The notes: a model not told the origin generated them from the sequence alone. A stretch of 64,000 nt of DNA from Candidatus Latescibacterota bacterium (GCA_019038625.1 JAHOYU010000077.1:3703-67702); one strand, 5' to 3'; positions 30,691 through 49,423 are shown, counted from the stretch's first letter. Made by a program: numbers and translations.

Positions 30691-31173
30691 TCACACCTTC
30701 TTGATAAGTAGATGCTCTAATGAAGTATAACCATTTCGGGCATAGTAGCGCAATAAGACCCGCTCTCTGGGGTTGTCATGCGTTCCCATAATACAGAATT
30801 GCGCTCCTGCGGCCTTTGCCGTAGACTCAAACTGTTCCAATAGCCAGTGTTCAACGCCGCTACCTCGATGATCTTTCGCAACATACCACCAAGCTTCCTG
30901 GCAAACCGACTGCTCTCTGCACAGCAGCCACGGACTGATAGTACCGGCAATCGTACCCACCACCTCATTATTATCACCAATGGCGAGTATCAGGATGCCA
31001 AAGTCATTGTTAATCAAAAGCTTTATAGTCTCAAGCAGGCTGAACGCATTGGCATCAAGCCCCTTATCCTTCAGCGTAGTCTCATTGTAGAACGCCGCAC
31101 CAAGACCAATCAGTTGCGTCAGATACGGCTCAACCATCCCATCGCTGACGATATTTATAATCCGGTAGTTCAT
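30691..31173 (-). CDS. GNAT-family N-acetyltransferase
   Basis: Motif A-like ...AKDHRGSGVEHWLLEQFESTAKAAG (R-x-x-G-x-G) and overall GNAT pattern. Embedded between tail genes. Confidence 0.6.
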   Translation of the reverse strand: MNYRIINIVSDGMVEPYLTQLIGLGAAFYNETTLKDKGLDANAFSLLETIKLLINNDFGILILAIGDNNEVVGTIAGTISPWLLCREQSVCQEAWWYVAKDHRGSGVEHWLLEQFESTAKAAGAQFCIMGTHDNPRERVLLRYYARNGYTSLEHLLIKKV

Positions 31174-31196: not shown

Positions 31197-33455
31197 TTAT
31201 GAATCAACGGCTATGGTGCCTACAAATCCATCGCCGAATTTTACTTTTAGATTGCCATCGGCGCTATTGCCGTATATTTGTATGACTCCACTTATTGTAT
31301 CCGGCTCGGTTACGCCATCGGTGACACAGATGATGTCTGTCCGAACCTTGCCCGCTTTATCCCACGAGAATTCGGTGCCAAGGGTCGTTACTTTGATTGT
31401 GCTTTCGGTCGGGGGTGTAGGCAAGGTGCCGCGCGTTCGCCTGATGCGTATCCAGTAGTAGTCCACTACATTGTCACCCGCGCCCGTAACTTCGTTGACC
31501 GTCCGCACTCCCCAGTCGGTCAGGTTGTCTTTATCAAAGGTGATAGCTCCAGAGTTCTGGAAGCCTGATGTGCTATCGTCTGGAGTGAAAGCGTGCCAAG
31601 TTCCAGCATCCTTGACATACTCAAATGTCGGGATAATGGTATGGCTTGCTGGCGTGACAAGGATCGCATTTATCTCGTCCCACTTCGCTGCCGCCGCTAT
31701 GTAGATATAGTCGTCGTCACTTGGGAAGAGCTGGACGTTTGTTCCAGAATCCCCGAAAGCAGTAGTCCGATCCGTGTAAGTATCCGTATCATAAGAAAAC
31801 GCGGCGGTTATGGAAGCCAGCGTCCCAAGATGCTGGTGAATAACATCAACATTGCCGTTAGAGCCAACGGCAGCTACGTTCATATCGGTGTTGGCCGTGT
31901 CTGTTACACTCACGCTAAGGCCATGAACATCACCTGCCGTGGCTCCCGCGTTATCTACCAGGACGCAGTTAGCGTGTCCTACCTTGGCAGCATCATCAAA
32001 GGCTGTAGCATCGAAGTTTACGCTATTCCCACATATTCCAGAGTAAATATCCGCGTCCACTTCCAGAAAAACGGCGCGATGATTGTCCTTCCCGGCGGTT
32101 ATGAGATAGTGAAGTGCGTGATCGTTATTGGCTTCATCACAATGCACCTTGAATGAAGCCCCGGCATTTACACCAATATGAAAATGCACATCCCCATTAT
32201 CAAGCACGAACATAAGAGGATGGTTAATTACCACGAAGTCCACGCCAGTCAGGTCATCTGGAGAAGCCGCTCCGGTCGAGTCTAAAGAGATAGTAATCGT
32301 AGTCTCTTCTACTGCGATAATCTCTCCGGTTGCCCCAATATAAGAAGCATCGCTTGCATCCGTTATTCTAAGCACATCTCCTACTACCACACCGTCAGTT
32401 ACAAATGTTTCTCCGGCTTTAAGAAACGTGAATGTAGCGGCAGTGAAAGTAGCGGCTATATCATACCATAAGGTTTTCGTCTTGGCATACTCCCGCATCA
32501 GGAGAGAGGGTCCATACTTATTGGCAATCGCGTACATCCCGTTACCCCAGTAACAACCGCCATCATTTGAGAATAGATCACCCTCGCTCCCAAAGAATCC
32601 AGTGGAATCGGCATCGTCCCCCAATTGCACGTTCTCGTGGAATGTCACTTTCTTAGCAGCATCCACGGTCATCACGACCACCCACGCCCCTGTAGCATAC
32701 GACTCAAGAGTGAACCCGGCAGCCGTCTTGCTGGCCACCAAGCGCCACTTGTCGGCGTTATCGTCACCTTCGTCGGCACTCAGGTAGATAATCCCGTCCG
32801 TATCCTCGGCACCCTTGACCGTCAGATCATCGCTCGTTACAAGCGTACCGCCCACGGTAGCATTGCCCGCAATTGTCGCCGTGGCACCGCCTACGTCTCC
32901 TACTACATCAAGATCACCACCAACGTCAGCATTGCCGGTAATATTGGCGGTTGCGCTCTCCATTTCCCCTGTTACATCAAGAGACGCGCCAGTTATGGCC
33001 CCAGCTATCGTCGCCGTAGCTCCAGCAACGTCGCCGGTCACATCAAGGTCTCCTCCTACATCCGCATCGCCAGTGACATTCAGGGTCGCGCTCTCCACCT
33101 CGCCAGTAACATCAAGCGAATCACCGGTTATCGCGGCACCTGAAATATCACCGTCAATACTCGCATCACCATCGGCTTCAATATTACGGCCCGCCAGAAC
33201 GTCCCGTTCCGCGATCACATCCTTGCCAGACTTGATGTCGCCCAGATCAGAGGTAGTAATATCATTCTTAACCTCAAGGCTATTGAGCGACAGATCACTA
33301 TCAATACCGGTTGCGGTTTCAACCGCTTCAGTGGTATCAGATAACTCTCTTACTATGGCCCCAAACCACTCCTGCCACGCCACGGACATAATGGTCTTTT
33401 CTTCATCCTCGAAGAAGGGCGTTTCAATCGGTGGCTCTATGAACTGGTTGGCCAT
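31197..33455 (-). CDS. large tail or structural protein (752 aa) with tandem 45-aa repeats
   Basis: Repeats AITG(D/A)SLDVTGE.ESAT.N.TG.ADVGGDLDV.GDV.GATATIAG occur twice, then a beta-rich body. Confidence 0.55.
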   Translation of the reverse strand: MANQFIEPPIETPFFEDEEKTIMSVAWQEWFGAIVRELSDTTEAVETATGIDSDLSLNSLEVKNDITTSDLGDIKSGKDVIAERDVLAGRNIEADGDASIDGDISGAAITGDSLDVTGEVESATLNVTGDADVGGDLDVTGDVAGATATIAGAITGASLDVTGEMESATANITGNADVGGDLDVVGDVGGATATIAGNATVGGTLVTSDDLTVKGAEDTDGIIYLSADEGDDNADKWRLVASKTAAGFTLESYATGAWVVVMTVDAAKKVTFHENVQLGDDADSTGFFGSEGDLFSNDGGCYWGNGMYAIANKYGPSLLMREYAKTKTLWYDIAATFTAATFTFLKAGETFVTDGVVVGDVLRITDASDASYIGATGEIIAVEETTITISLDSTGAASPDDLTGVDFVVINHPLMFVLDNGDVHFHIGVNAGASFKVHCDEANNDHALHYLITAGKDNHRAVFLEVDADIYSGICGNSVNFDATAFDDAAKVGHANCVLVDNAGATAGDVHGLSVSVTDTANTDMNVAAVGSNGNVDVIHQHLGTLASITAAFSYDTDTYTDRTTAFGDSGTNVQLFPSDDDYIYIAAAAKWDEINAILVTPASHTIIPTFEYVKDAGTWHAFTPDDSTSGFQNSGAITFDKDNLTDWGVRTVNEVTGAGDNVVDYYWIRIRRTRGTLPTPPTESTIKVTTLGTEFSWDKAGKVRTDIICVTDGVTEPDTISGVIQIYGNSADGNLKVKFGDGFVGTIAVDS
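32865..33134 (-). repeat. tandem 135-bp coding repeat (two units) inside the 752-aa gene
   Basis: Two consecutive 45-aa units are near-identical at protein and DNA level. Confidence 0.55.
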
Positions 33456-35296
33456 CAGTGATACCCGCCTTCATAGCCAATAAATCCGGCCACCATTACA
33501 GTTTTGATTGGGTCGGATATAGTAAACCTTAACCCGATTGTTCGCGCACTGCCAAGTTGGAACCAACGTGCCCTTGCCTCATATTCGCCAAGAGCGCCAA
33601 TATCGGTTATCCGTGGAGGGTTCCAGCTTTTACCACCGTTATATGATAGCTCCACCATTGCCTCTGGAGAACTACCCTGGCCACTTACCGCACCAGTACC
33701 AGGCTCCATCTCAAGTTCTACCTCTTTGACGATTATCCTGTACCTGTCATTAATCACATTAGGCACTGTCCTTTGCCTGATGACAGTATTGCCATCCTCG
33801 GTATAAACATCCGGGTCAAGGTAGTAAATCTTGTTATTCCGGTAATCGCCTACGAGATGATAATTCTCGAACAGGGCATAAGTGTTTCCGCGATGCCTGC
33901 CGTACCCGTCTATGTTGTCCTTCCAGCTTTTACGCTCATGCCATTCCTCTTCGGTGAAATCATAGCTGAATGTAACATCGTCTGTCGGGAAGCTTATCAC
34001 GTAGAATTCGTGGCCGCCTTGGCCGTAGGAGAACGACACTGCATCATCCACCTTACTCAACGCTTCCATTCTCGCAACCGTCTGGGGCGTAGATATATCA
34101 ACTGCGCTCATCCCTATGGCGGAATAGACATGCTTGTTATGGCCAAGCCACGTAAGTCTTTCTTGAAGGGCAGACACAGACCACTTCGCACCAAGTCCTA
34201 TTTCGAGATTACCGCCAGAACGGCGCTTGAACACAAGTTCAGCATCTCCGCTATTATAAAATACTTCCGTGCTTTTCTTCTTCCACACCCACAGGTTGCG
34301 CTTGTGGCTCAATATGCGTAGCGTATCAGTCGGCTTGACCTCTGCCCTGGCCACATCGAGAGCATTCCAGATGAGGCCGTTGTTTACCGCACTATGGAAA
34401 AAGTCGGGGCTATTCGGCCTGCCGGATATAAAAAAACCGTCCTGCGCGGTGCCACTCAGGCCACCCAAGAAGCTATAGTCGCTTTCATCAAGGCGCGTAA
34501 ACGAACCGCTTGAATCATCATACACGTATCCCGCGATAGTCCCGTCACAGATGAATAACTGCCTCCCCCCCACTAAGTTCCAGATGGAAGACATATCAAC
34601 AAGCCCGGCCTTCGTGGCCATAGGAGTATTGGCATTAATGGTGGTCACCGTGAAGTCGCTGTCTATTCTCTTCAGCAACGGCCCATGCACAACATACAGG
34701 TAATCGCCCATTATGTGCATACCGCGCATACTATAGTTTAGATTGATAACCTGGGTAAGGCTCACATCGCCCATTACGAGGGCTAAACTTGCAGTTGCAG
34801 TAAACTTAACACCACCAGAAGCACCGGCCACTATGTCCATCGTATACGTACCGGGACTCACCACAGGATCGCCATCCGTACCCGCAACAGATGGGACAAG
34901 AACCCCGCCGCTGATAGTAACTACGGTGAATGTCAGACGATGAGTTTCATCTTCTTCTGGCGCGGTCGCACCAACCATTTGGGCAACAGTTTGTTCGGTA
35001 TTATCCGCACTACCGCCTGCCGCCCTTCTGAGCTTATCACTTGAGATAGTCCATTGACCAGAACCTTTTGTCCAATCGGAATCGGCAGAAAAATCACCAC
35101 TTGTAATCTGGTCAGACTGTAGGTCGGTTTCTGTAAGATCGAGTTTTTCCACAAGGCCGGGAGTATTAATAAGCGCATCACGACCCCGCCCACGATCACG
35201 CTCAAGAAACATATTGACCGTGCGCTGTGGGTCGGCGTATACGCTTATACCCTCGCGGCTTCCGCCAACGAGAGGGATTTCTTTTCTCTGCGTCAT
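33455..35296 (-). CDS. large tail or structural protein (613 aa)
   Basis: Shares the domain FTV.(T/S)ISGG.(L/T).PS.AGT.G..VS..G....DIVAGASGGV.F with the 494-aa protein at 37526-39010. Confidence 0.5.
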   Translation of the reverse strand: MTQRKEIPLVGGSREGISVYADPQRTVNMFLERDRGRGRDALINTPGLVEKLDLTETDLQSDQITSGDFSADSDWTKGSGQWTISSDKLRRAAGGSADNTEQTVAQMVGATAPEEDETHRLTFTVVTISGGVLVPSVAGTDGDPVVSPGTYTMDIVAGASGGVKFTATASLALVMGDVSLTQVINLNYSMRGMHIMGDYLYVVHGPLLKRIDSDFTVTTINANTPMATKAGLVDMSSIWNLVGGRQLFICDGTIAGYVYDDSSGSFTRLDESDYSFLGGLSGTAQDGFFISGRPNSPDFFHSAVNNGLIWNALDVARAEVKPTDTLRILSHKRNLWVWKKKSTEVFYNSGDAELVFKRRSGGNLEIGLGAKWSVSALQERLTWLGHNKHVYSAIGMSAVDISTPQTVARMEALSKVDDAVSFSYGQGGHEFYVISFPTDDVTFSYDFTEEEWHERKSWKDNIDGYGRHRGNTYALFENYHLVGDYRNNKIYYLDPDVYTEDGNTVIRQRTVPNVINDRYRIIVKEVELEMEPGTGAVSGQGSSPEAMVELSYNGGKSWNPPRITDIGALGEYEARARWFQLGSARTIGLRFTISDPIKTVMVAGFIGYEGGYH

Positions 35297-35307: not shown

Positions 35308-36315
35308 TTAGTTGGTGTTGTCAGCAACCTGCTCGTTAACAACTGCCTTTGGAGAAGCCTGTGAATCGCTTGCCACGCTGCTGCTATTAAGCGCTCTTAA
35401 GAACGCCCGACTCTCCGAAGCCCTACTCGCAAGCCACTCTGGAACGGGAGCGCCGTATTCCGGGGCAAGTTCAATCGCAAGATTATACTTTAGCGCACGG
35501 AGAAATTCTTTAGGCAATAGGATGTCTGTAGAGCGCTCACTAACCAGGTAAGTTCTGAACGGCTGCCACAAATCAAGTTTTATCAAATCCGTGGCATCGG
35601 GGATATTGTCAAACCAAAGTGATCCGCTGTTTATCCCACGGTTATAATACATATTCTCCGGGGCGGCAGTGGACGCAAGGCCAGTAAGCTCTCTCATTCT
35701 TGTTCTGGCAATTATGCCAAGAGGGTCTTCTGCGCTACTTGTTTTAATGTTCGCCCACATGATCCTGTTAGGTCGTTGCATATTAAGCACTGTTGCGCTA
35801 CCTGCCGTCACGGCATCCGCAATGGCGGTCATGGTTATACTCGTAACGGTTTTGAACAGGAGATCGCTGTAGGCGTTACCAGCATTTGCACCCGTTACGT
35901 GATCTACCTGACCCTTGCCCTTCTCATTTGTGCCGGTAATGATGAAGGTGTTCCCGCTCTCATCGCCATCTGAAACCAAAATAACCTGTCTGGCAATATC
36001 CATTGTAGCAACGCTATCAGCAGCCAGGGCACCATCTATTGTAATACTCTCAGCAGCGGCGGCCTCAGTGCCTATGCCGTCAGCATCACCGCTGGCAACA
36101 TCGCTCTCCCCGATTGTATAGACCCTGCGGCCTACAACGAGAGGGAAATAGAACTCATCAAAATCATTCATTGCCAGCCGGTCGGCAGACCAGCTATCCA
36201 ACATATTATTAAGAGTCTCAATCCCATCATTGACCTTATTGGCCGGAGGCGGTTGTTCGGCATCATAAACTCCCAACTGCTGGAAGCTGGCCCTGACTAA
36301 TTCATATACAGTCAT
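35308..36315 (-). CDS. structural protein (335 aa), paralog of 36357-37334, carrying one copy of the FKTVTS module
   Basis: N-terminal similarity to the 325-aa neighbour. Contains TFIITGTNEKGKGQVDHVTGANAGNAYSDLLFKTVTSITM. Confidence 0.5.
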   Translation of the reverse strand: MTVYELVRASFQQLGVYDAEQPPPANKVNDGIETLNNMLDSWSADRLAMNDFDEFYFPLVVGRRVYTIGESDVASGDADGIGTEAAAAESITIDGALAADSVATMDIARQVILVSDGDESGNTFIITGTNEKGKGQVDHVTGANAGNAYSDLLFKTVTSITMTAIADAVTAGSATVLNMQRPNRIMWANIKTSSAEDPLGIIARTRMRELTGLASTAAPENMYYNRGINSGSLWFDNIPDATDLIKLDLWQPFRTYLVSERSTDILLPKEFLRALKYNLAIELAPEYGAPVPEWLASRASESRAFLRALNSSSVASDSQASPKAVVNEQVADNTN

Positions 36316-36356
36316 ATTTCTACCCTCGATAATGGGGATTTGAGTTAATAATTCCT

Positions 36357-37334
36357 TTAACGATTGTAGTTATCATAGTACCTGTCCCTGCTCTTGCGGC
36401 GCAGAACCATACTACGATGGCCGCTATCAAAGTTGTTCAGCATCTTAAGCTTCTTTTCAGCTTCTGAAATAACCCAGGCATAAACCGCTGAGGGCACTGC
36501 GTTCCTGTTCTCCGCGCCCCATTCCTTAGCGAGATTCCAGCGGATACAGGACATCCACTCATCAGGCAGATCAGGAGTATCGCTGCGATTAACAAACGTT
36601 TCTATGGGCATGAGTGCGCTGAACATGATACGCCCGTCAACGTCACTGAGCGGTGGCCAGATATAAAGCCTGCTATTGGTCAGCCTGGGCTGGAAGAAGC
36701 CAACAGACGGGGCAGCAGACGCTTGGCTACGTTGATTGATTGCGAAGAAGCGCTGCCTGGGCCACAGCAGAATAGGTTGTTCGTCTCCACTATTGTTCCG
36801 ATACCGAACATTATCGCGGTCAATATCTATCGGACGCACGATCTTGGTAGTGTAGTTCACAACCGTGTTGTTCTCACTGGCAGCGCCTGTAAGCACATCG
36901 GTTAGCGTAACAACGTTTGCAGATGGTACGCCATCGACAGTCGTGTACTGCATAAACCCTGTATCGAGTTCCACGCCGATATAGTCACCATTGGTTATAT
37001 CATCGTCATCATCGACAGTAATAGTACCGGCGGCTGCCGCTGCATCTGCGGCAAGTTCAGTGCCATACGGAGTGAAAGTAGCGTTGTCGCCACTTGGCCC
37101 CAAAGCATAATACTGGCTATCTTTCTGCGGAAAAAGCGCAATATCTTCTTTCGTCCATATCCCAACGCCCTGCGTCTGCCACTCGCGCATCATCTCATTA
37201 AGCGCACTAAGGGCATCGTTAAACTTCTCAGGCGGTATTCCTTCGCCCGTCTGGTATAAATGCAACAGGCGTGCCGCTCCGCGAATCAAGCCATCCGCAG
37301 TCTGTGTGATTGTCACTACGCCCGACGTTGCCAT
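36357..37334 (-). CDS. structural protein (325 aa), paralog of 35308-36315
   Basis: N-terminus LIRGAARLLHLYQTGEGIPPEKFNDALSALNEMMREW aligns with ELVRASFQQLGVYDAEQPPPANKVNDGIETLNNMLDSW of the neighbour. Confidence 0.5.
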   Translation of the reverse strand: MATSGVVTITQTADGLIRGAARLLHLYQTGEGIPPEKFNDALSALNEMMREWQTQGVGIWTKEDIALFPQKDSQYYALGPSGDNATFTPYGTELAADAAAAAGTITVDDDDDITNGDYIGVELDTGFMQYTTVDGVPSANVVTLTDVLTGAASENNTVVNYTTKIVRPIDIDRDNVRYRNNSGDEQPILLWPRQRFFAINQRSQASAAPSVGFFQPRLTNSRLYIWPPLSDVDGRIMFSALMPIETFVNRSDTPDLPDEWMSCIRWNLAKEWGAENRNAVPSAVYAWVISEAEKKLKMLNNFDSGHRSMVLRRKSRDRYYDNYNR

Positions 37335-37525
37335 AATCAGTAACCTCCGCGCTCCCTGTTCAGCCCGGAATTCATAGACTGAGGATTAGCCACAGAAGCT
37401 TCGCGGATAGTCATACGGCGTTTCTGATTGCTATCCTTTTTAGCGGGCTTCTTCTTACCCTTTGATCTCATGCCTTGAGCGTCCTTCATTTGCTTTTCGC
37501 CTCACTGCAAATAGTTGTGCCCTTA

Positions 37526-39010
37526 TCACAGATCGTCCTGGGTAGGGCTTTCATCGATAAACTCCCAATCGTATTCCGGCCTTGCGATTATATCAACGGC
37601 ATCATCAACCTTAGCCCGTACAAAGTCCTGCGCGTGTCGTGCCTCGTAACAGTTACCGGCTGGCGGCTTGCACACCCACTGGTTCTTCCAGTTCTTACGA
37701 ACTTCGTAGTAGTGAAAATGAAACCCGCAGATTTCGCATGTTACCTTATAGTCGTAGTCTATCGATCCTTGCCCTTCACCAGCATCCACGCCACTTAACT
37801 TCAAACTCGCATCATCCATCTGGATCGTAAGCCCTGAAACCAACTCCAACACGCTTATATCGTCCATCTGAATCGTCAGACTTGTAGAGCCGCTAAAAAT
37901 CACTCCGCCAGAAGCACCGGCCACTATATCCTGCTCATGGTCACCGGCTGCGCTCACGGCAGTTCCAGAAGTCCCAGCCAGAGAGGGCGTAACCGTTCCC
38001 CCGCTAATGCTATCGACCGTAAAGTATAGCCGGTAGGTCTTGCCTTCCACAAAAGCTACTGCCAGATCGCCAGCAACTTGAGAGGCCGTGTCTGGGCCAG
38101 TGGGACTGTAGCCAGTCACCTCTTTGAGTGACGCATTGTCCAGATAGCATGATTGGGTAATGCCAGCCGTGGTATCCTTACGGATACGCAGGACTGGCCC
38201 TTCTCCGACAACCGTGACAGCCGATATGGCAGTAGAATAGGTGCCATTTGCCGACACGTTGGAAAACGATGGCCCGTAGGTGGCCGCGCCCACAATATCC
38301 ATGCGCATTGGCATGGTGCCAGAAAGATTGGATACTTCGATTGTCGCTCTGTAGGTAGTATTGTCCTTGAGTACCGCACTAAAATCAGTGTCTGCTATGC
38401 CCCAGCCGCCAGCACTTGTCGTTTCCTTGATCCACAAAACGCCGGTAGCAGTGGAGAAGTAACCGGTAGTCGGCACCCAATTGCCAGCACCACCAGTGAA
38501 GGTAATGTCGCCGCCAACAAGAAGCTCTGAGCCAAGTATTTCATCACCTGTTCCGGGTGTTCTCGTAAGCTTTCCACCGGCAATAGCCCATTGGCTTTCC
38601 AGCGTCCAACCAGTATCACCTCCCGAAAAGTCTCCGTTAGAAATATGCTCTACTGCCAATGGCGTATCTATAGACCTGGGGCCATCAGATTGGAATCTTA
38701 GGCCATCAGTCACGTCTGTCGGCGTAAAATAAATGGTGTACGTGCCAACTTCGCTCAGTTTTGGCCCTTGGACATTGCCTAACCACGGCCTTACGGTGCC
38801 ACCGGTAATGCTGTCGATGGTAATCACCAAGACGTAGGTTGTACCTATAAGCAGATCATCGGTCAGATCAGCTTCAAGCTGTTCGGCACTATCCTCGCCC
38901 ACGCCGGAAGATGTACGTGTAAGCTTTCCACCGGCAATCCCCCACTGATCTCCGAGAGTCCAGCCGGTAGAAGATGCAAAATCCCCATTCTGTAGCAGTT
39001 CAGCGGCCAC
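37526..39010 (-). CDS. structural protein (494 aa) with an internal duplication and a C-terminal Cys4 zinc-ribbon
   Basis: LQNGDFASSTGWTLGDQWGIAGGKLTRT repeated as ISNGDFSGGDTGWTLESQWAIAGGKLTRT. C-terminal CEICGFH...CKPPAGNC. Shares a domain with the 613-aa protein. Confidence 0.5.
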   Translation of the reverse strand: MAAELLQNGDFASSTGWTLGDQWGIAGGKLTRTSSGVGEDSAEQLEADLTDDLLIGTTYVLVITIDSITGGTVRPWLGNVQGPKLSEVGTYTIYFTPTDVTDGLRFQSDGPRSIDTPLAVEHISNGDFSGGDTGWTLESQWAIAGGKLTRTPGTGDEILGSELLVGGDITFTGGAGNWVPTTGYFSTATGVLWIKETTSAGGWGIADTDFSAVLKDNTTYRATIEVSNLSGTMPMRMDIVGAATYGPSFSNVSANGTYSTAISAVTVVGEGPVLRIRKDTTAGITQSCYLDNASLKEVTGYSPTGPDTASQVAGDLAVAFVEGKTYRLYFTVDSISGGTVTPSLAGTSGTAVSAAGDHEQDIVAGASGGVIFSGSTSLTIQMDDISVLELVSGLTIQMDDASLKLSGVDAGEGQGSIDYDYKVTCEICGFHFHYYEVRKNWKNQWVCKPPAGNCYEARHAQDFVRAKVDDAVDIIARPEYDWEFIDESPTQDDL

Positions 39011-39175
39011 TGGACCAACCCCGGACCCATGCGGTCCAACCCAAAATTTATTAAATCACCGCAACACAATAAGCGCCATAGAGATACGTGGATATCAATT
39101 GAAAATGGCAATAATTTGCATAACAGCTAAATGATTATAACATAGACTGTTGGCCGCCGGACCAACCCGGTCCCG

Positions 39176-40423
39176 TTAATAATCACTGATAGGCGGTAGG
39201 ATTATCATATCCACGCTACCGGCCACGAAGTTTGTAATCTCTGCCCTGACCGCTGCCACCGCACCAACGGAACTACCCCGCTCACTGGCAACCTGCGGGC
39301 CATCAGTCTCAAACCAGCGTGCAGTATCCTCGTTACGCTCACCGTCTATAAGCCGGTCAAGGGTAGATACGAAGTTGTGGGTAAGATCACCATCCGAAGA
39401 ATGCTCGATGGCAAAGGTTATCCCGCTGTCGAAACGTTCCAGCGGTATGGGCGGGCCGTCCATTGAATCCGCGCTGCCAATCTCCACATTATCAGTAACC
39501 GCACCAGAGGCCCGTATGCTGGTTATCGTCCTGAAGTTCTTGGCAGAGGTGGCCGTGCCCGCGTTTGAGCCTGTGACAGCCTCTGAGAGCGCGTTACCGC
39601 GCCGGTCAGTGCCTTCAATGGTCAACGTTATACCACTGTTATCACCCGTACCCTCGATAGTGATATGTCTTGCGGTCAACTCGCAGAGTTCTCCGTTGAA
39701 CACAACGTCACCGGCACCGGACATCACCTGGGATATCGCTATGCCATCGAGTTTATCCACGGTACCGACTGTAAACCCTGAAGCATGGGTAGCGCCATCA
39801 ACAGCAACGCGGTTTACCGTCTTGAACAGCAGTGAACCTGTAACAGTTGCATCGTTCCCACCCGTAATGGCCTCGCTGATCTCGACATCATTGGCATCAC
39901 GGCCATAGACCGTGAACGTATCGCCCGAATCATCACCAGCGTTTGCAATCGCAACTATCTGGGCAACACCAAGATCGCCCACCCCGTACATATTGGCAAC
40001 CTTGGCCGCAGCACCATCGATAGCCAGGTTACGTGCATTAGCCGGAGTCTGCGCCTCACAGGCACCGTCATCATTGGCAACCTGTCCGACTTCCACTTCA
40101 CCAGAGGCTGCGCCATCGATTGAAACACGGGTAACGCTCTTGAACGTCTGGGTTGTATCGCCGGTAGTAGCTGCGGGGCCGGTCATTGATTCTTGAATTG
40201 GACTGCCGTTACTCCCCTCGCCGTAGACAACAAACGTGCGTGCCGACTCGTCTGCCGCGCAGGTAATGCGGATAGCAGCCGCTACGCCGAAGTTTGCTTT
40301 AACGTCAGTGACTACCAGGGCACCGTTAAGCAGCAAATCTGCGGCAGCACCGGTTGTCTGATCCGCGCAAACTCCGTTTGCATCCAGCGAGGACAGGGCA
40401 AGTGTAATCTTCTTCTGACGCAT
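39176..40423 (-). CDS. structural protein (415 aa) built from about four copies of a 50-aa module
   Basis: The module TF.VYG...G..I.E..TG.....T...FKTV..V..DGA recurs about four times. The same module appears once in 35308-36315 and once in 41483-42781. Confidence 0.5.
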   Translation of the reverse strand: MRQKKITLALSSLDANGVCADQTTGAAADLLLNGALVVTDVKANFGVAAAIRITCAADESARTFVVYGEGSNGSPIQESMTGPAATTGDTTQTFKSVTRVSIDGAASGEVEVGQVANDDGACEAQTPANARNLAIDGAAAKVANMYGVGDLGVAQIVAIANAGDDSGDTFTVYGRDANDVEISEAITGGNDATVTGSLLFKTVNRVAVDGATHASGFTVGTVDKLDGIAISQVMSGAGDVVFNGELCELTARHITIEGTGDNSGITLTIEGTDRRGNALSEAVTGSNAGTATSAKNFRTITSIRASGAVTDNVEIGSADSMDGPPIPLERFDSGITFAIEHSSDGDLTHNFVSTLDRLIDGERNEDTARWFETDGPQVASERGSSVGAVAAVRAEITNFVAGSVDMIILPPISDY

Positions 40424-40533
40424 TGCATGTTCTCCTCATTTTACAGAAATATCCTTAATCATTGTGTTTTCTCCACACGAGTTTAGAAAAGCCGGGGCTA
40501 TAAAAGCCCCCGGCCACAGAGAATAAATTACGA

Positions 40534-41439
40534 TCAAGGAACTGCGCCAGCAGCAGGATTAAGCACACCGCTAAGATTGATCACATGAGAGGCGAAGTTC
40601 TGACACACGAAAAAATCATTCGTGGCCGCAAGTGGTGCAGCGGTGTTCAAAGGACATTGTAAGTAGTTGTCGTAAATCGCTCCAGTTGCAGAGCTATCCG
40701 ACTTGATGCCCAGTACCAGACCGGCATCCAAATCGATATTTACGATGCGGTTGTTGTGTATCCGAATATTGGTCGAGTTGCCTGTAAGATGATCGATGAC
40801 CGATGCCGAGCAATCAACATGCCACTTGTTGTTTCTGATAATGCAGGTGTCGCTGGTTCCGGTAAAAAAGATCGAACTGGTCATCGCACCAGCGCCAGTA
40901 ATAAAGTCACAGCCCTCGATAATCACATTGGCGATAGTGGTAGCGATATCGACATGCTTCTTAAAGTCCAAAGCCGCCGTATCCCTGAACACACAGTTAC
41001 GGATAACCGTTCCATCAGCAGCGGCAGCAAGATCAATTGCCTGCACGCAGTCCGCAATACCAGACGCGAACTTCAGGTTCTCAAGCACCGTATTAGCCAC
41101 GGTAATCATCACCGCGCCAGCGGTGGCAGTCGATGTAAATGTGGGAACCCTGTTGCCCTGGCCAAGACCCCTGATGGTCAAATTGGCAACATCAACGGCA
41201 AAGATAGCCGCAGTAGACAGGTTCTCGGTATGGCCAGCCGCAATCAGAATCGTATCACCAGCCGTAGCCTTGCCGATAGCAATGTCGATTGTAGCATAGG
41301 GGTTGTCTTTCGTACCCCTTCGGGTAGTACCGCTATTCGCATCAACCCAGATCACCTTATTCCCAGAGCCGGGTATTTGATTCATGGGAAGCTCTTTTAC
41401 CGCAGCATCCCCGCTTATTACACTTGGGAAACTACTCAT
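40534..41439 (-). CDS. right-handed beta-helix (pectate-lyase-like) protein, candidate spike or depolymerase (301 aa)
   Basis: NLTIRGLG...TVIRNCVFRDTAALDFKKHVDIATTIANVIIEGCDF... shows typical parallel beta-helix rungs. The C-terminal about 250 aa are paralogous to 41483-42781. Confidence 0.55.
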   Translation of the reverse strand: MSSFPSVISGDAAVKELPMNQIPGSGNKVIWVDANSGTTRRGTKDNPYATIDIAIGKATAGDTILIAAGHTENLSTAAIFAVDVANLTIRGLGQGNRVPTFTSTATAGAVMITVANTVLENLKFASGIADCVQAIDLAAAADGTVIRNCVFRDTAALDFKKHVDIATTIANVIIEGCDFITGAGAMTSSIFFTGTSDTCIIRNNKWHVDCSASVIDHLTGNSTNIRIHNNRIVNIDLDAGLVLGIKSDSSATGAIYDNYLQCPLNTAAPLAATNDFFVCQNFASHVINLSGVLNPAAGAVP

Positions 41440-41482
41440 TTTTCACATCTCCCTTAGGCTTAGTAGCCTAAACTGCGATAAG

Positions 41483-42781
41483 TTAGATAGTATCAGCGCC
41501 AGGCTCTAACACACCACTGACATTGATAGTGTTGGAGGCATAGTTCTCGGACGTATAGTAATCAGCCGTAACGGCAATAGGTTCGGCATCAGTTTTGGGC
41601 GACAAGCAGTAGTTATCGTAGACCAATCCCGTTCCGTCACCGGAAGAATCAAGGCCAAGTACCAGGCCGGCCCCAGTGTCGATATTAATTATTCGATTAC
41701 CGTAAATCGCAATATCGAGCGGATCGTCAGCCAAGTGGTCAATGACACCAGCCGAACAGTCAACATGCCAGAAGTTATTACGGATAATGCAGTAAGAACT
41801 CGTCCCGGCGAAATCAACAGATTCTGTCATCCCACCGGCAGCGGTAGTAAAATCACAGCCCTCAATAATGAGATCGGTAACAGTTGTGGCGATATCAATG
41901 TGTTGCAAAAAGTCCAGGGCCGCACTTGAATCTCTGAACACACAGTTACGGATAACAGTACCGTCTGCGGCGGCGGAAAGATCAATCGCGTTTGCGCAAT
42001 CAGTGATGTTGGACACGAACTTCAAGTTCTGAAGTGTCGTATTCGCGGCTGTAATCATCACCGCGCTAAGTTGTGCGGTGGTGGTAAATGTCGGTATCCT
42101 CTGGTTTTCACCCATACCTTTGATGGTCAACCCTGCGGTACTCACGTTAAAACCTACCGCAGTGACATACGCACCGTTCATCGGTATGTAAAGTGTGCTC
42201 GGAGTGGCGGCAGTAGTGCAGATGCCGTCAGGATCAGCGACCGTCCCGATAGTAATATTGCCAGAAGTCGCGCTGCCAACATAGACCGATGTAACGGTCT
42301 TGAATTTTTGGGTGGTATAGACGGTGCCAGAGGACGCGGGGCCAACTCGCGCCTCGCTAACAGGTTGGCCCCTGCCATTCGTACCGGTGATGGTAAAGGT
42401 GTCGCCAGAATCGTTTTGATCACTTGTGATCCCTACGACACATTCAGTCGCCAGCGTTGCCACTACCGTAAGATTCTCGGTATGCCCGGCTGCAATCATT
42501 ATCGTATCGCCGGTCTTGGCCGCAGCGATGGCCGCAGCTACAGTAGCATACGGTCTAACGTATGTCCCGTCACCGCCCTTAGCAGCGTTAACGTCAACCC
42601 ATAGAACTTTCTCTACCGGGCCGACAAGAGGCTGAATGGGCATGTTCAGAATCGACACGCCGTCACTAAAGCCTTCTGGGTAATTTGAACTATACATTAT
42701 TTCTCCTACGGACGCTCGTAGCGCCCCTTCGGGATAACCCGTAGTTCGTGATTGAAAGCTAATGGTACGGCAGCCGGTCAA
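41483..42781 (-). CDS. right-handed beta-helix protein, paralog of 40534-41439, with an extra N-terminal module (432 aa)
   Basis: The C-terminal domain aligns with the 301-aa neighbour (TVIRNCVFRDSSAALDFLQHIDIATTVTDLIIEGCDF). The N-terminal part carries the FKTVTSV module. Confidence 0.55.
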   Translation of the reverse strand: MTGCRTISFQSRTTGYPEGALRASVGEIMYSSNYPEGFSDGVSILNMPIQPLVGPVEKVLWVDVNAAKGGDGTYVRPYATVAAAIAAAKTGDTIMIAAGHTENLTVVATLATECVVGITSDQNDSGDTFTITGTNGRGQPVSEARVGPASSGTVYTTQKFKTVTSVYVGSATSGNITIGTVADPDGICTTAATPSTLYIPMNGAYVTAVGFNVSTAGLTIKGMGENQRIPTFTTTAQLSAVMITAANTTLQNLKFVSNITDCANAIDLSAAADGTVIRNCVFRDSSAALDFLQHIDIATTVTDLIIEGCDFTTAAGGMTESVDFAGTSSYCIIRNNFWHVDCSAGVIDHLADDPLDIAIYGNRIINIDTGAGLVLGLDSSGDGTGLVYDNYCLSPKTDAEPIAVTADYYTSENYASNTINVSGVLEPGADTI

Positions 42782-42862: not shown

Positions 42863-43792
42863 TCATCCCCCTTCAGAGCCAAAAACGCCTTTTGCGTCCG
42901 TCCAGCCAAAAGAGCAACGGAAATATCCGCTGAACTTGGCGTTTTTGGTATCGAAATCGTCGTCTTGCTCGAACTTGTCAGGGTCACGATCAAAATACTT
43001 CAGACCGTCCGGGCAGTCGGTGATGATAAACCACGCATCGGCATCGGTGAAGTAATGGTTGATAGTGTACCCTTCGGGGAACGTGCCCAGGTTACGCAGA
43101 GCGTTAATGTCGTTATTGGCCGTACCAACACGCAGCGGAGATTTAAGAATCCTCTCCGCCTCGTACTTCAATTGGCGCGGGATGGCCAGCTTGCGCGGCA
43201 TAACCTTGATCTTCAGCCCACGGTCATTAGTCCAGCCAGCAATGTCGATATCTGCCTGTTCCAATGCCTTTTCGCTGAGATCGGATGGGGTTTCGAGTTC
43301 GTTCCGGTATGTCCCGCCGTAACCACCTTGGTTCGGGTGAACAGACGAGAACATTTCCAGGCCGTCAGCGCCGGTGTACGCAGAGTTGAAGCCACGGTTG
43401 AAGACATTTGCGGCCACATGCTCTTTCGTCTGGCGAAGACTGTAGGCCAGAGCACGCGGTTTGCGCAGCATCTGGTTGGTGATGCGGTACTGGCTGTCAC
43501 GCCACATCTCCCAGGAGACAATAAATCCGAGGGCGTATGCAATGTGCGCGTACCGCTGGACAAAACCCTGACTCATTGAGTCGTAGGTAATGCCCTTGTT
43601 CTCAGGCTTGATCGGAGCGAGTCCGAGAGATGTCAGGCCGACATCTTCCTCGTAAGCCTTATCCGAGGAGTTGTAGGAAAAGAGTTCGGTGTATTCCTCC
43701 GGGTATTTCTTGTACTCCGCTGCATAAGTGGAGTTCATTCCCGGCCACAGGAATTTACCGAACCCTCCGCGAGTTATTACGCCTGCTGCCAT
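42863..43792 (-). CDS. putative major capsid protein (309 aa)
   Basis: Assigned by position (after scaffold-like proteins, before the spike and tail genes) and size. No diagnostic motif recognised. Confidence 0.4.
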   Translation of the reverse strand: MAAGVITRGGFGKFLWPGMNSTYAAEYKKYPEEYTELFSYNSSDKAYEEDVGLTSLGLAPIKPENKGITYDSMSQGFVQRYAHIAYALGFIVSWEMWRDSQYRITNQMLRKPRALAYSLRQTKEHVAANVFNRGFNSAYTGADGLEMFSSVHPNQGGYGGTYRNELETPSDLSEKALEQADIDIAGWTNDRGLKIKVMPRKLAIPRQLKYEAERILKSPLRVGTANNDINALRNLGTFPEGYTINHYFTDADAWFIITDCPDGLKYFDRDPDKFEQDDDFDTKNAKFSGYFRCSFGWTDAKGVFGSEGG

Positions 43793-47106: not shown

Positions 47107-47406
47107 TCAATATAGAGGCTTGTCCGTAGCCGGTGTCCGCGTTGCGCCCGCCTTTTTCTTCTTTGCCACTCGTTCAGGCTTTACTGCCAGCGCCTGTTCC
47201 ACGGCCCTGCAGTAGCCATTCGAGTCCGCTACTTTCCCATGGGTCAGATCGGGCCTGTCCATGTCAATGACCTTATTCTGACTCAATCTCCTGCGCTCAT
47301 CTTCCAGCGCGGCACTAAGCGCTCTCCTGAAATGTTGGGTAACAGGATGATTGAACCATTGCTGAAATACATCATCATTTACCGGTAGATTTCTTATTCT
47401 TGCCAT
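47107..47406 (-). CDS. hypothetical protein (99 aa)
   Basis: The ORF overlaps the portal gene's stop by 32 nt. Confidence 0.35.
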   Translation of the reverse strand: MARIRNLPVNDDVFQQWFNHPVTQHFRRALSAALEDERRRLSQNKVIDMDRPDLTHGKVADSNGYCRAVEQALAVKPERVAKKKKAGATRTPATDKPLY

Positions 47407-49423
47407 CTGCCTTCCCCTTCTTGGTCGGCTGCTTATCAGCCGGTTTGTCAGGTTTGTTGGCCTGTTTTATCCTCGCGGCGGCTTCCATCTTCTTGATATC
47501 TATTTCCTTCAGCGCTATCTCATGCTTCTGATCAAGCTCCTGTTTCTTAAGCTTCAACTCGCCTTCTTTAAGCTTCAACTCTTCCATCTTAAGCTTGAAC
47601 TCAGCGCCAGCGGCTTCCTTTTCCGCGAGTATCTCCAGCACTTTCGGGTCTGGCGGCGGCTTGTAATCCTCTGGTATCTTGAATCTTTCCTTGTCCTCTA
47701 TCTGCATCGCATCAAGCCAATACTCGAAAATAGCTTGGGCTACCGGCGGGACTACCGTTTGCCTCATCTCCATAAGCTTGTCGGCCTTGAGCATCTTCTG
47801 GATGTGCATCACATCTTCGGGCAGCGCGGAAAGCGTTATATCAACACTCTCTGAGTTAAAGTCTCTGGCAAAGACTTCCTGCTGCTCGTTTACATCCATT
47901 ACGTTGTAATATTCCGCCCGGCCAAGATGCTCCATGTCCAGACGGTAAATCTTTTTGAGTTCCTCGCCAATGCCACGGTGGACACGGCCCATAACCGCAG
48001 TATGCAGCTTAAGCCCCTGTTCTATCAGGGCAAGCGTAGTAGTGGCCGGTTGATTTGAGCCGGAGGCTTGACCGCCCAACACATCTACGCTCATACCCAG
48101 ACGCTGATAGGCTTCCATCAGCAGCCCAAGTGTATGGAACAGGGTCATGCTCGGCTCACGCGCGGGCAGCATCATAAACTTCTTGCGCAGATCGTCTACA
48201 TCCGATGCTTCCTTGAACTCGTTCGGCTCAAACTCAAGGTTGCCGGACTCGTTGGATGCCATCAGCAGATCAGAGGTATACAGGCCAGCGTTGGTATTAT
48301 ACCAGATGCCGGAATCAATTATCTCTCTGATTATCGCGTTAATGGCATCATTGGGGTGGGAAAGCAACTGGCCGAATCCGAAGCCGTAAACCGACTTATC
48401 GATTGCGGGCATAAACAGGATGCGGGTAAACATCTCACGCGCTTCTATCTTTGCGATCTCTTTCCCGTCGGGTGTCAGCCAGATATCGTCTTCCTTGTAT
48501 CTGGCCTTTATCCTCGCAACAGTATCTGTTTCCTTGTGAACGGTCACTATGTAAGGCTCTGCATAGCCATCACCGTCCAAGTCCCACCATCTATGCTGCT
48601 CCAGAAAGATATAATTACCTTCATCTTCTCCCTGTGAGGTCTGCTTCGCCTCCTGATCACCCTCGCCTATCTTCTCCAAGATATCTGACCATGCACCGCT
48701 ATTAATGCGCTCCTTAACAGTATTCCGGGTCAACTCAAGGTAATGGGTAGCGCGTTTGGCGGTCTTCAGGTCGGTAACTTCGGGGTGGATCACTAAGTCC
48801 ATCGCAGATACATACTCACTGTAATTGCGCTTCTCTTCCACGTAGCGGTATGTTTTCTTGAAGGCGCAGCCGAATACTGGCAGGCCGAACAGGGCAGCGT
48901 CAGTCTCAGGCATCCATTCAGGCATTTCCTCTGTAAGCTGGTAGTTCACAAAGTCGGCAACGCGCTGTGCGCTACTGGCCTTCTGGCCGTCCGGGTCTTG
49001 GCCGATTACCTTGCCCTTTACTATTCTATTGCTGAATATCGCTCCTGTCGCCCTGGAACTGAACTGGACACACGATTGGGCCAGCAAAGGCATTATAACA
49101 GAACATGCTCCTGCGAATGGCGTGTCCTTTTCCTCCACATTCATCTTAACGAACTTGATGGCCATCGCCATAGTCCGTTCCCAATCTTTGCGCGCGTCCT
49201 TATCGTACTTATACTCCTGAGTGACCTTCACGCCAATCCGGCGTACAACCTCGTCTTTCAGCGCGGGTACGATATTCGCCATCTTGCTCCACTTCACAAG
49301 CTGCTTCGGGTCAGTGCCCTTGGCGTTGTTGCCCGTAGCGTCCTTCAGACCCCGTGAAGCATAGTACTTTCTGTTCTTCGTCACGTATTTCGGCATTTCA
49401 CCGCCCCTTTTTCTTCCATTCAA
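47375..49423 (-). CDS. portal protein (682 aa)
   Basis: Size, position (after the terminase and before the scaffold and capsid genes), and a K/E-rich helical tail. Overall pattern typical of podovirus-type portal or connector proteins. Confidence 0.6.
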   Translation of the reverse strand: MNGRKRGGEMPKYVTKNRKYYASRGLKDATGNNAKGTDPKQLVKWSKMANIVPALKDEVVRRIGVKVTQEYKYDKDARKDWERTMAMAIKFVKMNVEEKDTPFAGACSVIMPLLAQSCVQFSSRATGAIFSNRIVKGKVIGQDPDGQKASSAQRVADFVNYQLTEEMPEWMPETDAALFGLPVFGCAFKKTYRYVEEKRNYSEYVSAMDLVIHPEVTDLKTAKRATHYLELTRNTVKERINSGAWSDILEKIGEGDQEAKQTSQGEDEGNYIFLEQHRWWDLDGDGYAEPYIVTVHKETDTVARIKARYKEDDIWLTPDGKEIAKIEAREMFTRILFMPAIDKSVYGFGFGQLLSHPNDAINAIIREIIDSGIWYNTNAGLYTSDLLMASNESGNLEFEPNEFKEASDVDDLRKKFMMLPAREPSMTLFHTLGLLMEAYQRLGMSVDVLGGQASGSNQPATTTLALIEQGLKLHTAVMGRVHRGIGEELKKIYRLDMEHLGRAEYYNVMDVNEQQEVFARDFNSESVDITLSALPEDVMHIQKMLKADKLMEMRQTVVPPVAQAIFEYWLDAMQIEDKERFKIPEDYKPPPDPKVLEILAEKEAAGAEFKLKMEELKLKEGELKLKKQELDQKHEIALKEIDIKKMEAAARIKQANKPDKPADKQPTKKGKADGKNKKSTGK

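What the first reader, a model, noticed from the sequence alone, without database searches (positions are those of the whole stretch)
35308..42781. A 50-aa module (TFxVYG...FKTVTSV..DGA) reiterated about four times in one protein and once each in two others; a second module is shared by the 494-aa and 613-aa proteins
39176-40423 is essentially four tandem copies of the module. Single copies sit in 35308-36315 and at the N-terminus of the beta-helix protein 41483-42781. Separately, 37526-39010 and 33455-35296 share the block FTV.SISGG...AGT.G...DIVAGASGGV.F. The 494-aa protein also has an internal 30-aa duplication and ends in a Cys4 zinc ribbon. Such domain shuffling among structural proteins points to small Ig-like or adhesin-like domains, possibly for surface binding, not described from sequence alone.
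Basis: seen in the sequence. Interest (0 to 1): 0.5.

Follow-up and report, generated by a model that had tools for sequence, protein, structure and literature searches.

The report
Two shuffled beta-sandwich modules on phage virion proteins
A podophage's head-, neck- and tail-associated proteins carry copies of two small beta-sandwich domains; one belongs to a large, un-annotated family also found in bacterial flagellar proteins. This is an ordinary kind of domain shuffling carried out with an undescribed domain.

Summary
The repeats are real, but the anatomy needs correcting. Module A is about 103 aa, not 50. Protein 39176-40423 has three tandem copies plus an unrelated C-terminal domain, not four copies. 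One copy sits in adaptor 35308-36315. One copy is inserted, circularly permuted, in a loop of beta-helix protein 41483-42781; its paralog 40534-41439 lacks it.

Module B ("NGDF..GW") occurs three times in 37526-39010, fused to a small Zn-ribbon protein that stands alone in related phages. It occurs once in the P22-gp10-like protein 33455-35296.

Best reading: an outward-facing accessory domain, probably for weak surface adhesion. That function is inferred, not shown. I rate it a new member of a known kind, of moderate interest.

The parts
39176..40423 (-). g415: stand-alone module-A protein. It has an 11-aa N-terminal strand, three modules A, and a conserved C-terminal domain of about 98 aa.
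   Evidence: ORF. Three HMM domains with E 1e-41 to 5e-49. AlphaFold pLDDT 90.1 and pTM 0.85, all-beta. Orthologs lie at the same position in L003 and L004.
40082..40390 (-). Module A copy 1 (g415 residues 12-114)
39761..40081 (-). Module A copy 2 (g415 residues 115-221)
39473..39760 (-). Module A copy 3 (g415 residues 222-317)
39179..39472 (-). Conserved C-terminal domain of the stand-alone family (g415 residues 318-415). It is not a fourth module by sequence.
   Evidence: The C-terminal-domain HMM scores E 2e-25 here and nowhere else in the window. hhalign against module A gives probability 2.6%. The domain is present in 129 of 202 fetched module-A proteins.
35308..36315 (-). g335: P22-gp4/SU10-type head-to-tail adaptor, paralog class 2, with module A inserted
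   Evidence: phrog_12985 E 1.4e-36 and phrog_637 Ad3 E 6e-9. The adaptor family profile hits P22/Sf6 gp4 at E 3e-5. Alignment A9.
35797..36093 (-). Module A copy in adaptor g335 (residues 75-173)
   Evidence: HMM E 2.9e-26. It occupies the same insertion site at which paralog g325 carries a different small insert.
36357..37334 (-). g325: adaptor paralog class 1, without module A. It has a different small insert at the same site.
   Evidence: 24% identity to g335 over 319 aa, E 5e-12. Weak SU10_adaptor and P22_Tail-4 hits. Alignment A9.
41483..42781 (-). g432: right-handed beta-helix-like protein encoded directly after the capsid gene, carrying a module A insertion. The true start is probably the ATG at 42697.
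   Evidence: 51% identical to g301, E 5e-96. Alignment A4 with four homologs. Weak beta-helix family hits. The L004 ortholog has a weak Pel9A-like_beta_helix hit.
42140..42445 (-). Circularly permuted module A inserted in g432 (residues 113-214)
   Evidence: The insert is absent from g301 and from the L001, L003 and L004 orthologs. The native order splits into HMM positions 40-105 followed by 2-28. The re-permuted sequence aligns to positions 2-105 in one piece at 92.3 bits.
40534..41439 (-). g301: beta-helix paralog without the module
37526..39010 (-). g494: three modules B fused to a C-terminal Zn-ribbon domain
38645..39010 (-). Module B copy 1 (g494 residues 1-122)
38117..38644 (-). Module B copy 2, with internal expansions (g494 residues 123-298)
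37835..38116 (-). Module B copy 3 (g494 residues 299-392)
   Evidence: 39% identical to the g613 copy, E 3e-18
37529..37795 (-). Zn-ribbon domain (g494 residues 406-494; C425, C428, C447, C454). It is homologous to stand-alone proteins of about 100 aa in related phages.
33455..35296 (-). g613: P22-gp10-like tail hub (head closure Hc3 / Phage_stabilise) with module B inserted near the N terminus
   Evidence: phrog_578 E 2.7e-82 over residues 188-610. The L004 ortholog carries Pfam Phage_stabilise.
34742..35122 (-). Module B copy in g613 (residues 59-185)
   Evidence: The L004 ortholog has module B at the same place.

Best explanation
The region is the head-proximal, neck and tail gene block of a podophage of about 70 kb. 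It has an SU10-type portal, a Mu-gpT-like capsid protein, P22-gp4-type adaptors and a P22-gp10-type hub. Two unrelated, independently folding beta-sandwich modules have been distributed among its virion proteins by duplication, insertion and fusion.

Module A is about 103 aa, with consensus DxDGIC..QT..GAG.LTLNG...R.V.I.S.GDDSG.TFTV.GTD..G...E.ITGPNA.TV....F.TVT.I..SG...G.V.VG. It is predicted to be a small jelly-roll. It belongs to a large, un-annotated domain family that behaves as a mobile, outward-facing accessory domain in four settings:
- It is strung 1-3 times on a small anchor domain, in a protein encoded between the capsid and adaptor genes (here g415).
- It is inserted at the variable site of neck adaptors (g335).
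- It is inserted in loops of beta-helix enzymes (g432, here circularly permuted).
- In bacteria it occurs between the conserved terminal domains of flagellins and of the hook-associated protein FlgK.

Module B is about 110-175 aa, starts with 'NGDF..GW', and is probably a CBM-like jelly-roll. It is used in the same way in g494 and g613.

Shown here: the repeats, their boundaries, the family size, the architectures, the synteny, the permutation and the predicted all-beta fold. Inferred: the modules are exposed on the virion surface and mediate weak, multivalent attachment to host-surface polymers, with copy number setting reach and avidity. My sub-confidences are 0.9 for a mobile accessory beta-sandwich family, 0.7 for an exposed position on the virion, and about 0.35-0.4 for adhesion as the function.
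For: - Five copies, with strong statistics.
- The exhaustive profile search finds 2,974 representatives at E<=1e-3 and 1,591 at E<=1e-10.
- Among 202 fetched members, 129 have the g415-type C-terminal domain. Of these, 62 have one module (median 212 aa), 51 have two (318 aa) and 16 have three (417 aa).
- Other hosts are adaptors (P0108, P0030), nozzle-sized proteins of 713-717 aa encoded next to the adaptor gene (P0007 and relatives), tailspike-like beta-helix proteins (P0042, P0047, P0055), flagellins (P0201, P0065) and FlgK with 7 copies (P0023). The FlgK case was confirmed on a complete Candidatus Levibacter chromosome.
- The insertion in g432 is absent from its paralog and from three orthologs. 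It tolerates circular permutation.
- The adaptors carry the module at a hot-spot where paralogs carry a different insert or extra modules. Against P22 gp4, the whole stretch between the two matched helical segments, module included, is additional; the SU10 paper notes that P22/Sf6 adaptors lack the fibre-dock domain that T7/SU10 adaptors have (PMC9509320).
- Related phages redistribute both modules. L004 has a third adaptor paralog with one A and two B, and L003 has a 764-aa protein with two B.
- The stand-alone protein always lies between the capsid and adaptor genes.
Against: - No binding, localisation or proteomic data exist for any member.
- The most conserved positions are mainly Gly, Ala, Ser and Thr plus a few polar residues. 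There is no conserved surface aromatic residue of the kind typical of sugar-binding sites.
- pTM 0.85 for g415 suggests a rigid body rather than flexible beads, which fits a structural role equally well.
- Model coordinates could not be inspected, so exposure and domain register are not verified.
- For module B, the fold assignment rests only on a motif and two marginal hits: CBM_4_9 at E 0.19 and a GH101 endo-alpha-N-acetylgalactosaminidase chain at E 0.013.
Confidence: 0.55

Rival explanations
1. Module A is purely architectural. The g415 family would be a capsid cement, decoration or head-fibre protein, and the modules would be rigid spacers or stabilisers with no ligand. Copy number (1, 2 or 3) would only set the height of a protrusion.
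For: - The gene lies directly downstream of the capsid gene, or of capsid plus beta-helix genes, in every locus examined.
- SU10 has at that position gp10, a predicted minor capsid protein (PMC9509320).
- The related phage DSL-LC04 has an annotated 'cement protein' after its capsid gene.
- pTM 0.85 suggests a rigid multi-domain body.
Against: - The same module is inserted in adaptors, nozzle-sized proteins, tailspike beta-helices, flagellins and FlgK, where capsid cementing is irrelevant.
- There is no detectable sequence relation to the cement-like proteins of cultured relatives.
- Several polar positions (Q11, D49, S51, E69, N75) are conserved across 244 instances.
Confidence: 0.25
2. Module A is an assembly or docking interface. 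The copy on the adaptor ring would recruit g415 or the module-bearing beta-helix protein g432 by module-module contacts, taking the role that the fibre-dock domain plays in T7/SU10 adaptors.
For: - In the adaptor the module lies in the stretch that is extra relative to P22 gp4, which lacks the fibre-dock domain that T7/SU10 adaptors have (PMC9509320).
- Three different virion proteins of one phage carry the same module.
Against: - The five copies are only 28-37% identical to each other, with no sign of co-evolution.
- Close relatives have beta-helix proteins without the module.
- The tandem arrays in FlgK and flagellins, and the tailspikes with their own N-terminal anchors, do not need such docking.
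Confidence: 0.1
3. The modules are members of a well-known Ig-like or adhesin family (Big_2, FN3, He_PIG, I-set) that the first reader could not recognise.
For: Only sub-threshold He_PIG hits in the module-B region (E 0.49 in g613; E 0.06 in one module-B copy) and an IPT/TIG chain at E 0.15 for module A.
Against: - No Pfam family is matched by more than 1 of 20 module-A copies.
- There are no hits in PHROGs or NCBIfam.
- Structure searches return jelly-rolls, not Ig folds.
Confidence: 0.03
4. The similarity is a compositional artefact of Ala/Gly/Thr/Val-rich structural proteins.
For: The proteins are low in aromatic residues and rich in small residues. Many weak BLAST hits link g752, g415 and others.
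Against: - HMM E-values reach 1e-49 with in-register conserved motifs.
- The family recurs in thousands of proteins with sharp domain boundaries.
- The predicted fold is confident.
Confidence: 0.01

Closest known systems
Ig-like accessory domains on tailed-phage virion proteins (Big_2, I-set, FN3; T4 Hoc and the 'adherence to mucus' idea). This comparison is from established knowledge, not tested here.
   Same: Small beta-sandwich domains of about 100 aa, appended to or inserted in capsid, neck and tail proteins. They are variable in number, spread by shuffling, and thought to give weak surface adhesion.
   Different: Module A has no sequence match to any of these families. Its predicted fold is a jelly-roll rather than Ig-like. 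It also occurs in bacterial flagellar proteins.
Jelly-roll carbohydrate-binding modules (CBM32, CBM6/35, CBM_E1, F5/8 type C)
   Different: Only 5-14% identity, no family-level sequence match, and no conserved aromatic platform. Sugar binding is untested.
Jelly-roll phage cement and decoration proteins (KHP40 gp16 7dou, BPP-1 cement 3j4u_H, Carin1 8cjz_B, VP1 SHP 9in6_c) and SU10 gp10
   Same: Similar fold class. For g415, the same genomic position just after the capsid gene.
   Different: Those are single-domain proteins of about 110-140 aa. g415 has three modules plus a separate C-terminal domain, and the module is also used outside the head context.
Insertion domains in tailspike beta-helices (for example the P22 tailspike 'dorsal fin'). 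This comparison is from established knowledge.
   Same: A compact domain is inserted in a loop between turns of a right-handed beta-helix (g432, and P0042/P0047-type tailspikes).
   Different: Here the insert is a member of a mobile family used in many other proteins. In g432 it is circularly permuted.
Flagellin and hook-associated protein outer (variable) domains
   Same: Module A sits between the conserved N- and C-terminal helical regions of flagellins and FlgK, the region that forms the filament's outer surface.
   Different: It is not Flagellin_IN or another annotated flagellin insert. The phage copies lie in unrelated host proteins.
P22 gp4 / T7 gp11 / SU10 gp11 head-to-tail adaptors (the host protein of one copy)
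   Same: The N-terminal and C-terminal helical segments match P22/Sf6 gp4 (E 3e-5), and there are weak SU10_adaptor Pfam hits.
   Different: About 245 extra profile positions, module A included, lie between the two helical segments that match gp4. There are two paralogs per genome here and three in L004.

Membership tests
Pfam Ig-like / adhesin domains (Big_2, FN3, He_PIG, TIG) | Match to the family HMM at or above its gathering score | tested here: not met
   No hit for module A in 20 copies or in whole proteins. He_PIG only at E 0.49 and 0.06, well below cut-off, and only in module B. IPT/TIG PDB chain at E 0.15.
Ig-like fold | Greek-key 7-9 strand Ig topology recovered by structure search | tested here: not met
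Jelly-roll CBM / galactose-binding-like superfamily (module A) | Fold similarity to solved CBMs | tested here: inconclusive
Jelly-roll CBM / galactose-binding-like superfamily (module A) | Demonstrated or conserved carbohydrate-binding site | not testable with these tools
   No conserved aromatic surface residues in 244 instances.
CBM_4_9 (module B) | Match to PF02018 at its gathering score | tested here: not met
   Best E 0.19, in 1 of 4 copies. The only other lead is a GH101 endo-alpha-N-acetylgalactosaminidase chain at E 0.013. The 'NGDF..GW' start is a resemblance recalled from CBM4/9-type domains.
Phage jelly-roll cement/decoration proteins | Sequence or profile relation to a characterised cement protein | tested here: not met
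   The module and C-terminal-domain HMMs do not hit the DSL-LC04 'cement protein', HTVC023P gp41 or Alcaligenes phage gp08. No PDB sequence match.
Phage jelly-roll cement/decoration proteins | Location on the capsid exterior at 3-fold or quasi-3-fold sites | not testable with these tools
   Only the gene position after the capsid gene supports it.
P22 gp4-type head-to-tail adaptor (g335, g325) | Homology of the helical core to solved adaptors | tested here: met
   Profile of 9 family members against PDB: P22/Sf6 gp4 at E 2.7e-5, with two helical segments aligned. phrog_637 'head-tail adaptor Ad3' at E 6e-9.
P22 gp10-type hub / head closure Hc3 (g613) | Match to the family profile over the core | tested here: met
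   phrog_578 E 2.7e-82 over residues 188-610. The L004 ortholog carries Pfam Phage_stabilise.
Right-handed parallel beta-helix (pectate-lyase-like) (g432, g301) | Match to a beta-helix family model at threshold | tested here: inconclusive
   NosD E 0.007, DUF1565 E 0.018 and TIGR03805 E 8.6e-4 are all below cut-off. The ortholog has a weak Pel9A-like_beta_helix hit.
Zinc ribbon (C terminus of g494) | Two CxxC-type knuckles, conserved in homologs | tested here: met
   C425-x2-C428-x18-C447-x6-C454. All four Cys are conserved in the L003 and L004 stand-alone homologs and lost in the Alcaligenes phage homolog. No Pfam model matches at threshold (Zn_ribbon_10 at E 0.06).

The most novel reading that the evidence does not exclude
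Module A may be a shared phage and flagellum surface domain that self-associates. Phages displaying it on head, neck and tail enzymes could then latch onto flagellar filaments or hook junctions that display the same domain, for example the 7-copy FlgK of SAR116-type Alphaproteobacteria. That would be a homotypic, receptor-mimicking route to flagellotropic adsorption. It would also be direct evidence of domain exchange between virion and flagellar surface proteins.
Probability: 0.06. Interest if true: 0.75.

Novelty: new member of a known kind. Interest (0 to 1): 0.4.

Why it matters
Accessory beta-sandwich domains on virions are thought to tune host range and adsorption. This one is abundant: at least 2,974 50%-identity clusters, including a cultured pelagiphage of the globally abundant HTVC023P type. 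It is nevertheless absent from Pfam, PHROGs and NCBIfam, so thousands of virion proteins stay 'hypothetical'. Defining it gives four things:
- a marker for virion-exposed proteins in uncultured podophages;
- a clear case of in-loop insertion with circular permutation;
- a concrete link between phage virion and bacterial flagellar surface architecture;
- a testable candidate for adhesion modules in marine and environmental phages.

Tried and rejected
- tblastn of g415, g494 and the one-module relative P0079 against 50,697 GenBank phage records: no match. Only a local HMM scan of neighbours of related capsid genes found HTVC023P gp42.
- The search for related loci with the module alignment failed because no conserved 7-10-column stretch exists. 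With g415 itself nothing was confirmed in IMG/VR.
- The profile query in the search for homologous proteins returned only short fragments.
- PDB sequence searches with the module A, C-terminal-domain and module B profiles gave nothing significant. g494 alone gave nothing.
- The afdb50 fold library was unavailable. BFVD returned only uncharacterised uncultured-phage proteins.
- A fourth, degenerate module in g415 residues 318-415 is rejected: HMM i-E 650 and hhalign probability 2.6%.
- A relation between modules A and B is rejected: hhalign probability 0.1%.
- Recent DNA-level duplication is rejected.
- The C-terminal domain of HTVC023P gp42 is homologous to a 100-aa stand-alone protein of phage DSL-LC04 (E 1e-12), but that protein is not detectably related to the g415-type C-terminal domain. 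Module A is therefore attached to at least two different small domains.
- PHROGs gave no informative label for those neighbours.

Full report
**Context.** All genes in 30-50 kb lie on the minus strand and form a podophage structural block.
- The portal is 47375-49423, with Pfam SU10_portal at E 1.9e-10.
- The capsid protein is 42863-43792, with Phage_capsid_4 and Mu gpT-like hits.
- Next come two beta-helix-like paralogs, g432 (41483-42781) and g301 (40534-41439).
- They are followed by g415 (39176-40423) and g494 (37526-39010).
- Two adaptor paralogs follow, g325 (36357-37334) and g335 (35308-36315), which hit phrog_12985 and Ad3.
- g613 (33455-35296) is the P22-gp10-like hub (phrog_578, E 2.7e-82).
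- Downstream lie a 752-aa protein, a GNAT acetyltransferase, a DNA-ejection protein and a 2178-aa giant protein.

g415 is identical to a protein of a 70.9-kb contig deposited as a 'Bacteroidales bacterium' MAG. Related contigs L003 and L004 share the gene order capsid, beta-helix, module protein, Zn-ribbon protein, adaptors, hub.

**Observation: module A.** An HMM built from the three repeats of g415 alone detects the copies in g432 (E 5.7e-16) and g335 (E 6.1e-15). A six-frame scan of the 64-kb window finds exactly these five copies.
- The unit is about 103 aa.
- g415 consists of an 11-residue N-terminal strand, three units (12-114, 115-221, 222-317) and a 98-residue C-terminal domain.
- That C-terminal domain is conserved in the family but is unrelated to the module by profile-profile comparison.
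- The copies are 28-37% identical and there is no DNA tandem repeat, so the duplications are ancient.
- Orthologous copies in other phages are closer to each other than the copies within one protein are. Copy 1 is 64% identical to copy 1 of P0003.

**The insertion in g432.** Alignment with g301 (51% identical overall) and with orthologs from L001, L003 and L004 shows a clean insertion of about 100 residues after the motif AGHTENL. Its order is HMM positions 40-105 followed by 2-28. When the two pieces are swapped in silico, the sequence aligns end to end in one domain at 92.3 bits. The insert is therefore a circular permutant, as if it had been cut out of register from a tandem array. The breakpoint lies in the length-variable stretch at roughly HMM positions 25-40. 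The TTG start listed for g432 is probably too far upstream. Homolog N termini align with the ATG at 42697.

**The adaptors.** Alignment of nine family members defines two orthologous classes.
- Class 1 (g325 and its orthologs) carries a small insert of about 60-70 aa.
- Class 2 (g335, P0108, the L003 353-aa and L004 345-aa proteins) carries module A at the same site.
- P0030 carries both the small insert and two modules.
- L004 has a third paralog of 622 aa with one module A and two modules B.

The family profile matches P22/Sf6 gp4 in two helical segments (E 2.7e-5). About 245 extra positions lie between those segments. The SU10 paper states that P22/Sf6 adaptors lack the fibre-dock domain that T7/SU10 adaptors have (PMC9509320). 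I infer that the module projects from the outside of the neck, but I could not test the exact structural equivalence.

**Module B and the Zn ribbon.**
- g613 residues 59-185 match g494 at three places: E 3e-18, 4e-9 and 3e-4.
- g494 holds three copies (1-122, 123-298 with expansions, 299-392).
- Residues 406-494 of g494 contain C425-x2-C428-x18-C447-x6-C454 and an (E/D)xRHxQ motif. They are homologous to stand-alone proteins of about 100 aa at the same genomic position in L003 and L004, and to a cysteine-less homolog in an Alcaligenes phage.
- g494 is therefore a small conserved protein that has acquired three N-terminal modules.
- In L003 and L004, module B sits in the hub ortholog, in long adaptor paralogs and in a 764-aa protein.
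- Its fold is not established. There is only a faint CBM_4_9 hit (E 0.19), a marginal match to a GH101 endo-alpha-N-acetylgalactosaminidase chain (E 0.013) and phrog_30593 of unknown function.

**What module A is.**
- No Pfam, PHROGs or NCBIfam model and no PDB sequence matches it.
- The single-module AlphaFold model is moderate: pLDDT 73.7, with the weakest region in the first 30 residues.
- The full g415 model, built from 14 orthologs, is confident: pLDDT 90.1, pTM 0.85, all-beta.
- BFVD returns uncharacterised proteins of uncultured phages.
- Fold class is therefore assigned, but no homolog of known function exists.

**Distribution.** An exhaustive HMMER search of 1.84 billion representatives gives 2,974 hits at E<=1e-3 and 1,591 at E<=1e-10.
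- Of 202 fetched members, 129 share the g415-type C-terminal domain. Their sizes are quantised: one module (62 proteins, median 212 aa), two (51, median 318 aa), three (16, median 417 aa).
- Other hosts are adaptors, nozzle-sized proteins of 713-717 aa encoded next to the adaptor gene, and tailspike-like proteins with a tail-fibre-type N terminus and pectate-lyase beta-helix.
- Bacterial hosts are flagellins (P0201, P0065) and a 2125-aa FlgK with seven copies.
- The FlgK case was verified on the complete chromosome of a Candidatus Levibacter (Puniceispirillales).
- The only cultured-phage member found is pelagiphage HTVC023P gp42, the second gene after the capsid gene (HMM E 4e-13).
- The C-terminal domain of gp42 matches a 100-aa stand-alone protein of phage DSL-LC04 (E 1e-12). 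That protein shows no detectable relation to the g415-type C-terminal domain.

**Mechanism.**
- Shown: a mobile, independently folding beta domain that tolerates tandem arrays, loop insertion and circular permutation, and that is found in proteins building the outside of virions and flagella.
- Inferred: it is solvent-exposed and provides weak, multivalent adhesion to host-surface polymers. This is analogous to Ig-like domains on other phages and to insertion domains in tailspikes (established knowledge, not tested here).
- The main rival is a purely architectural role as cement, decoration or spacer. It is supported by the gene position (compare SU10 gp10), the annotated cement gene in DSL-LC04, the jelly-roll cement hits and the rigid model.
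- That rival is weakened by the module's use in neck, tail and flagellar proteins.
- A docking role is possible but unsupported.

**Verdict.** The interpretation, shuffled small surface domains not yet described, is broadly right apart from the fold. The kind of feature is familiar and the domain family appears to be un-annotated. Interest is moderate.

Noticed in passing
window 51674-54229 (-): The large terminase is unusually long at 851 aa. Between its ATPase and nuclease parts it has weak LAGLIDADG / homing-endonuclease hits around residues 298-379 (E about 8e-4), which suggests an intein or an inserted endonuclease.
   Followed up: partly
window 35308-37334 (-); L004 11651-15507: There are two paralogous head-to-tail adaptor genes in tandem (g325 and g335, 24% identical), and three in the related phage L004. 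They differ in what is inserted at one site. This raises the question of a mixed or stacked adaptor ring.
   Followed up: partly
window 41483-42781 (-): The mechanical ORF starts at a TTG at 42781. Homolog N termini align with the ATG at 42697 (residue 29, 'MYSSNYPEGFSD'), so the real protein is probably 404 aa.
   Followed up: yes
window about 32885-33170 (-), residues about 95-190 of the 752-aa protein 31197-33455: The N-terminal part of the 752-aa protein contains two near-identical units of about 44 aa ('ITG.SLDVTGE.ESAT.N.TG.ADVGGDLDV.GDV.GATATIAG'). This was seen by eye in the translation. No DNA tandem repeat was reported there.
   Followed up: partly
window 22086-28622 (-): A 2178-aa protein matches the C-terminal parts of giant phage proteins of 2800-3900 aa and unknown function (phrog_14770, E 1e-119). 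The L004 counterpart (2842 aa) carries the LPD38 'large polyvalent protein' domain.
   Followed up: no
window 30691-31173 (-): A GNAT acetyltransferase (Acetyltransf_1, E 3.5e-8) is embedded among tail and ejection genes. A GNAT gene sits in a similar place in Alcaligenes phage vB_Af_QDWS535.
   Followed up: no
whole window; P0001: The source contig (70,917 nt) is deposited as a 'Bacteroidales bacterium' MAG, but the whole structural region is phage. The nearest capsid relatives infect Alcaligenes, Roseobacter, cyanobacteria, Pelagibacter and Caulobacter, so the bin label is weak evidence of host.
   Followed up: partly
L009 (Candidatus Levibacter chromosome NZ_CP159808.1, 1547294-1562614); L008: A giant flagellar hook-associated protein FlgK of 2128 aa carries seven copies of module A between its conserved N- and C-terminal regions. 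Its 90% cluster has 62 members in marine metagenomes.
   Followed up: partly
L007 15640-16239 (HTVC023P gp42); L006 15498-15800 (DSL-LC04): In pelagiphage HTVC023P, module A is fused to a different C-terminal domain. That domain exists as a stand-alone 100-aa protein just after the annotated 'cement protein' of phage DSL-LC04 (BLASTP E 1e-12).
   Followed up: partly
L005 7623-7907 (Alcaligenes phage vB_Af_QDWS535 gp10): This homolog of the Zn-ribbon protein keeps the 'WEPRHPQ' motif but has lost all four cysteines. The conserved function therefore may not depend on zinc.
   Followed up: partly
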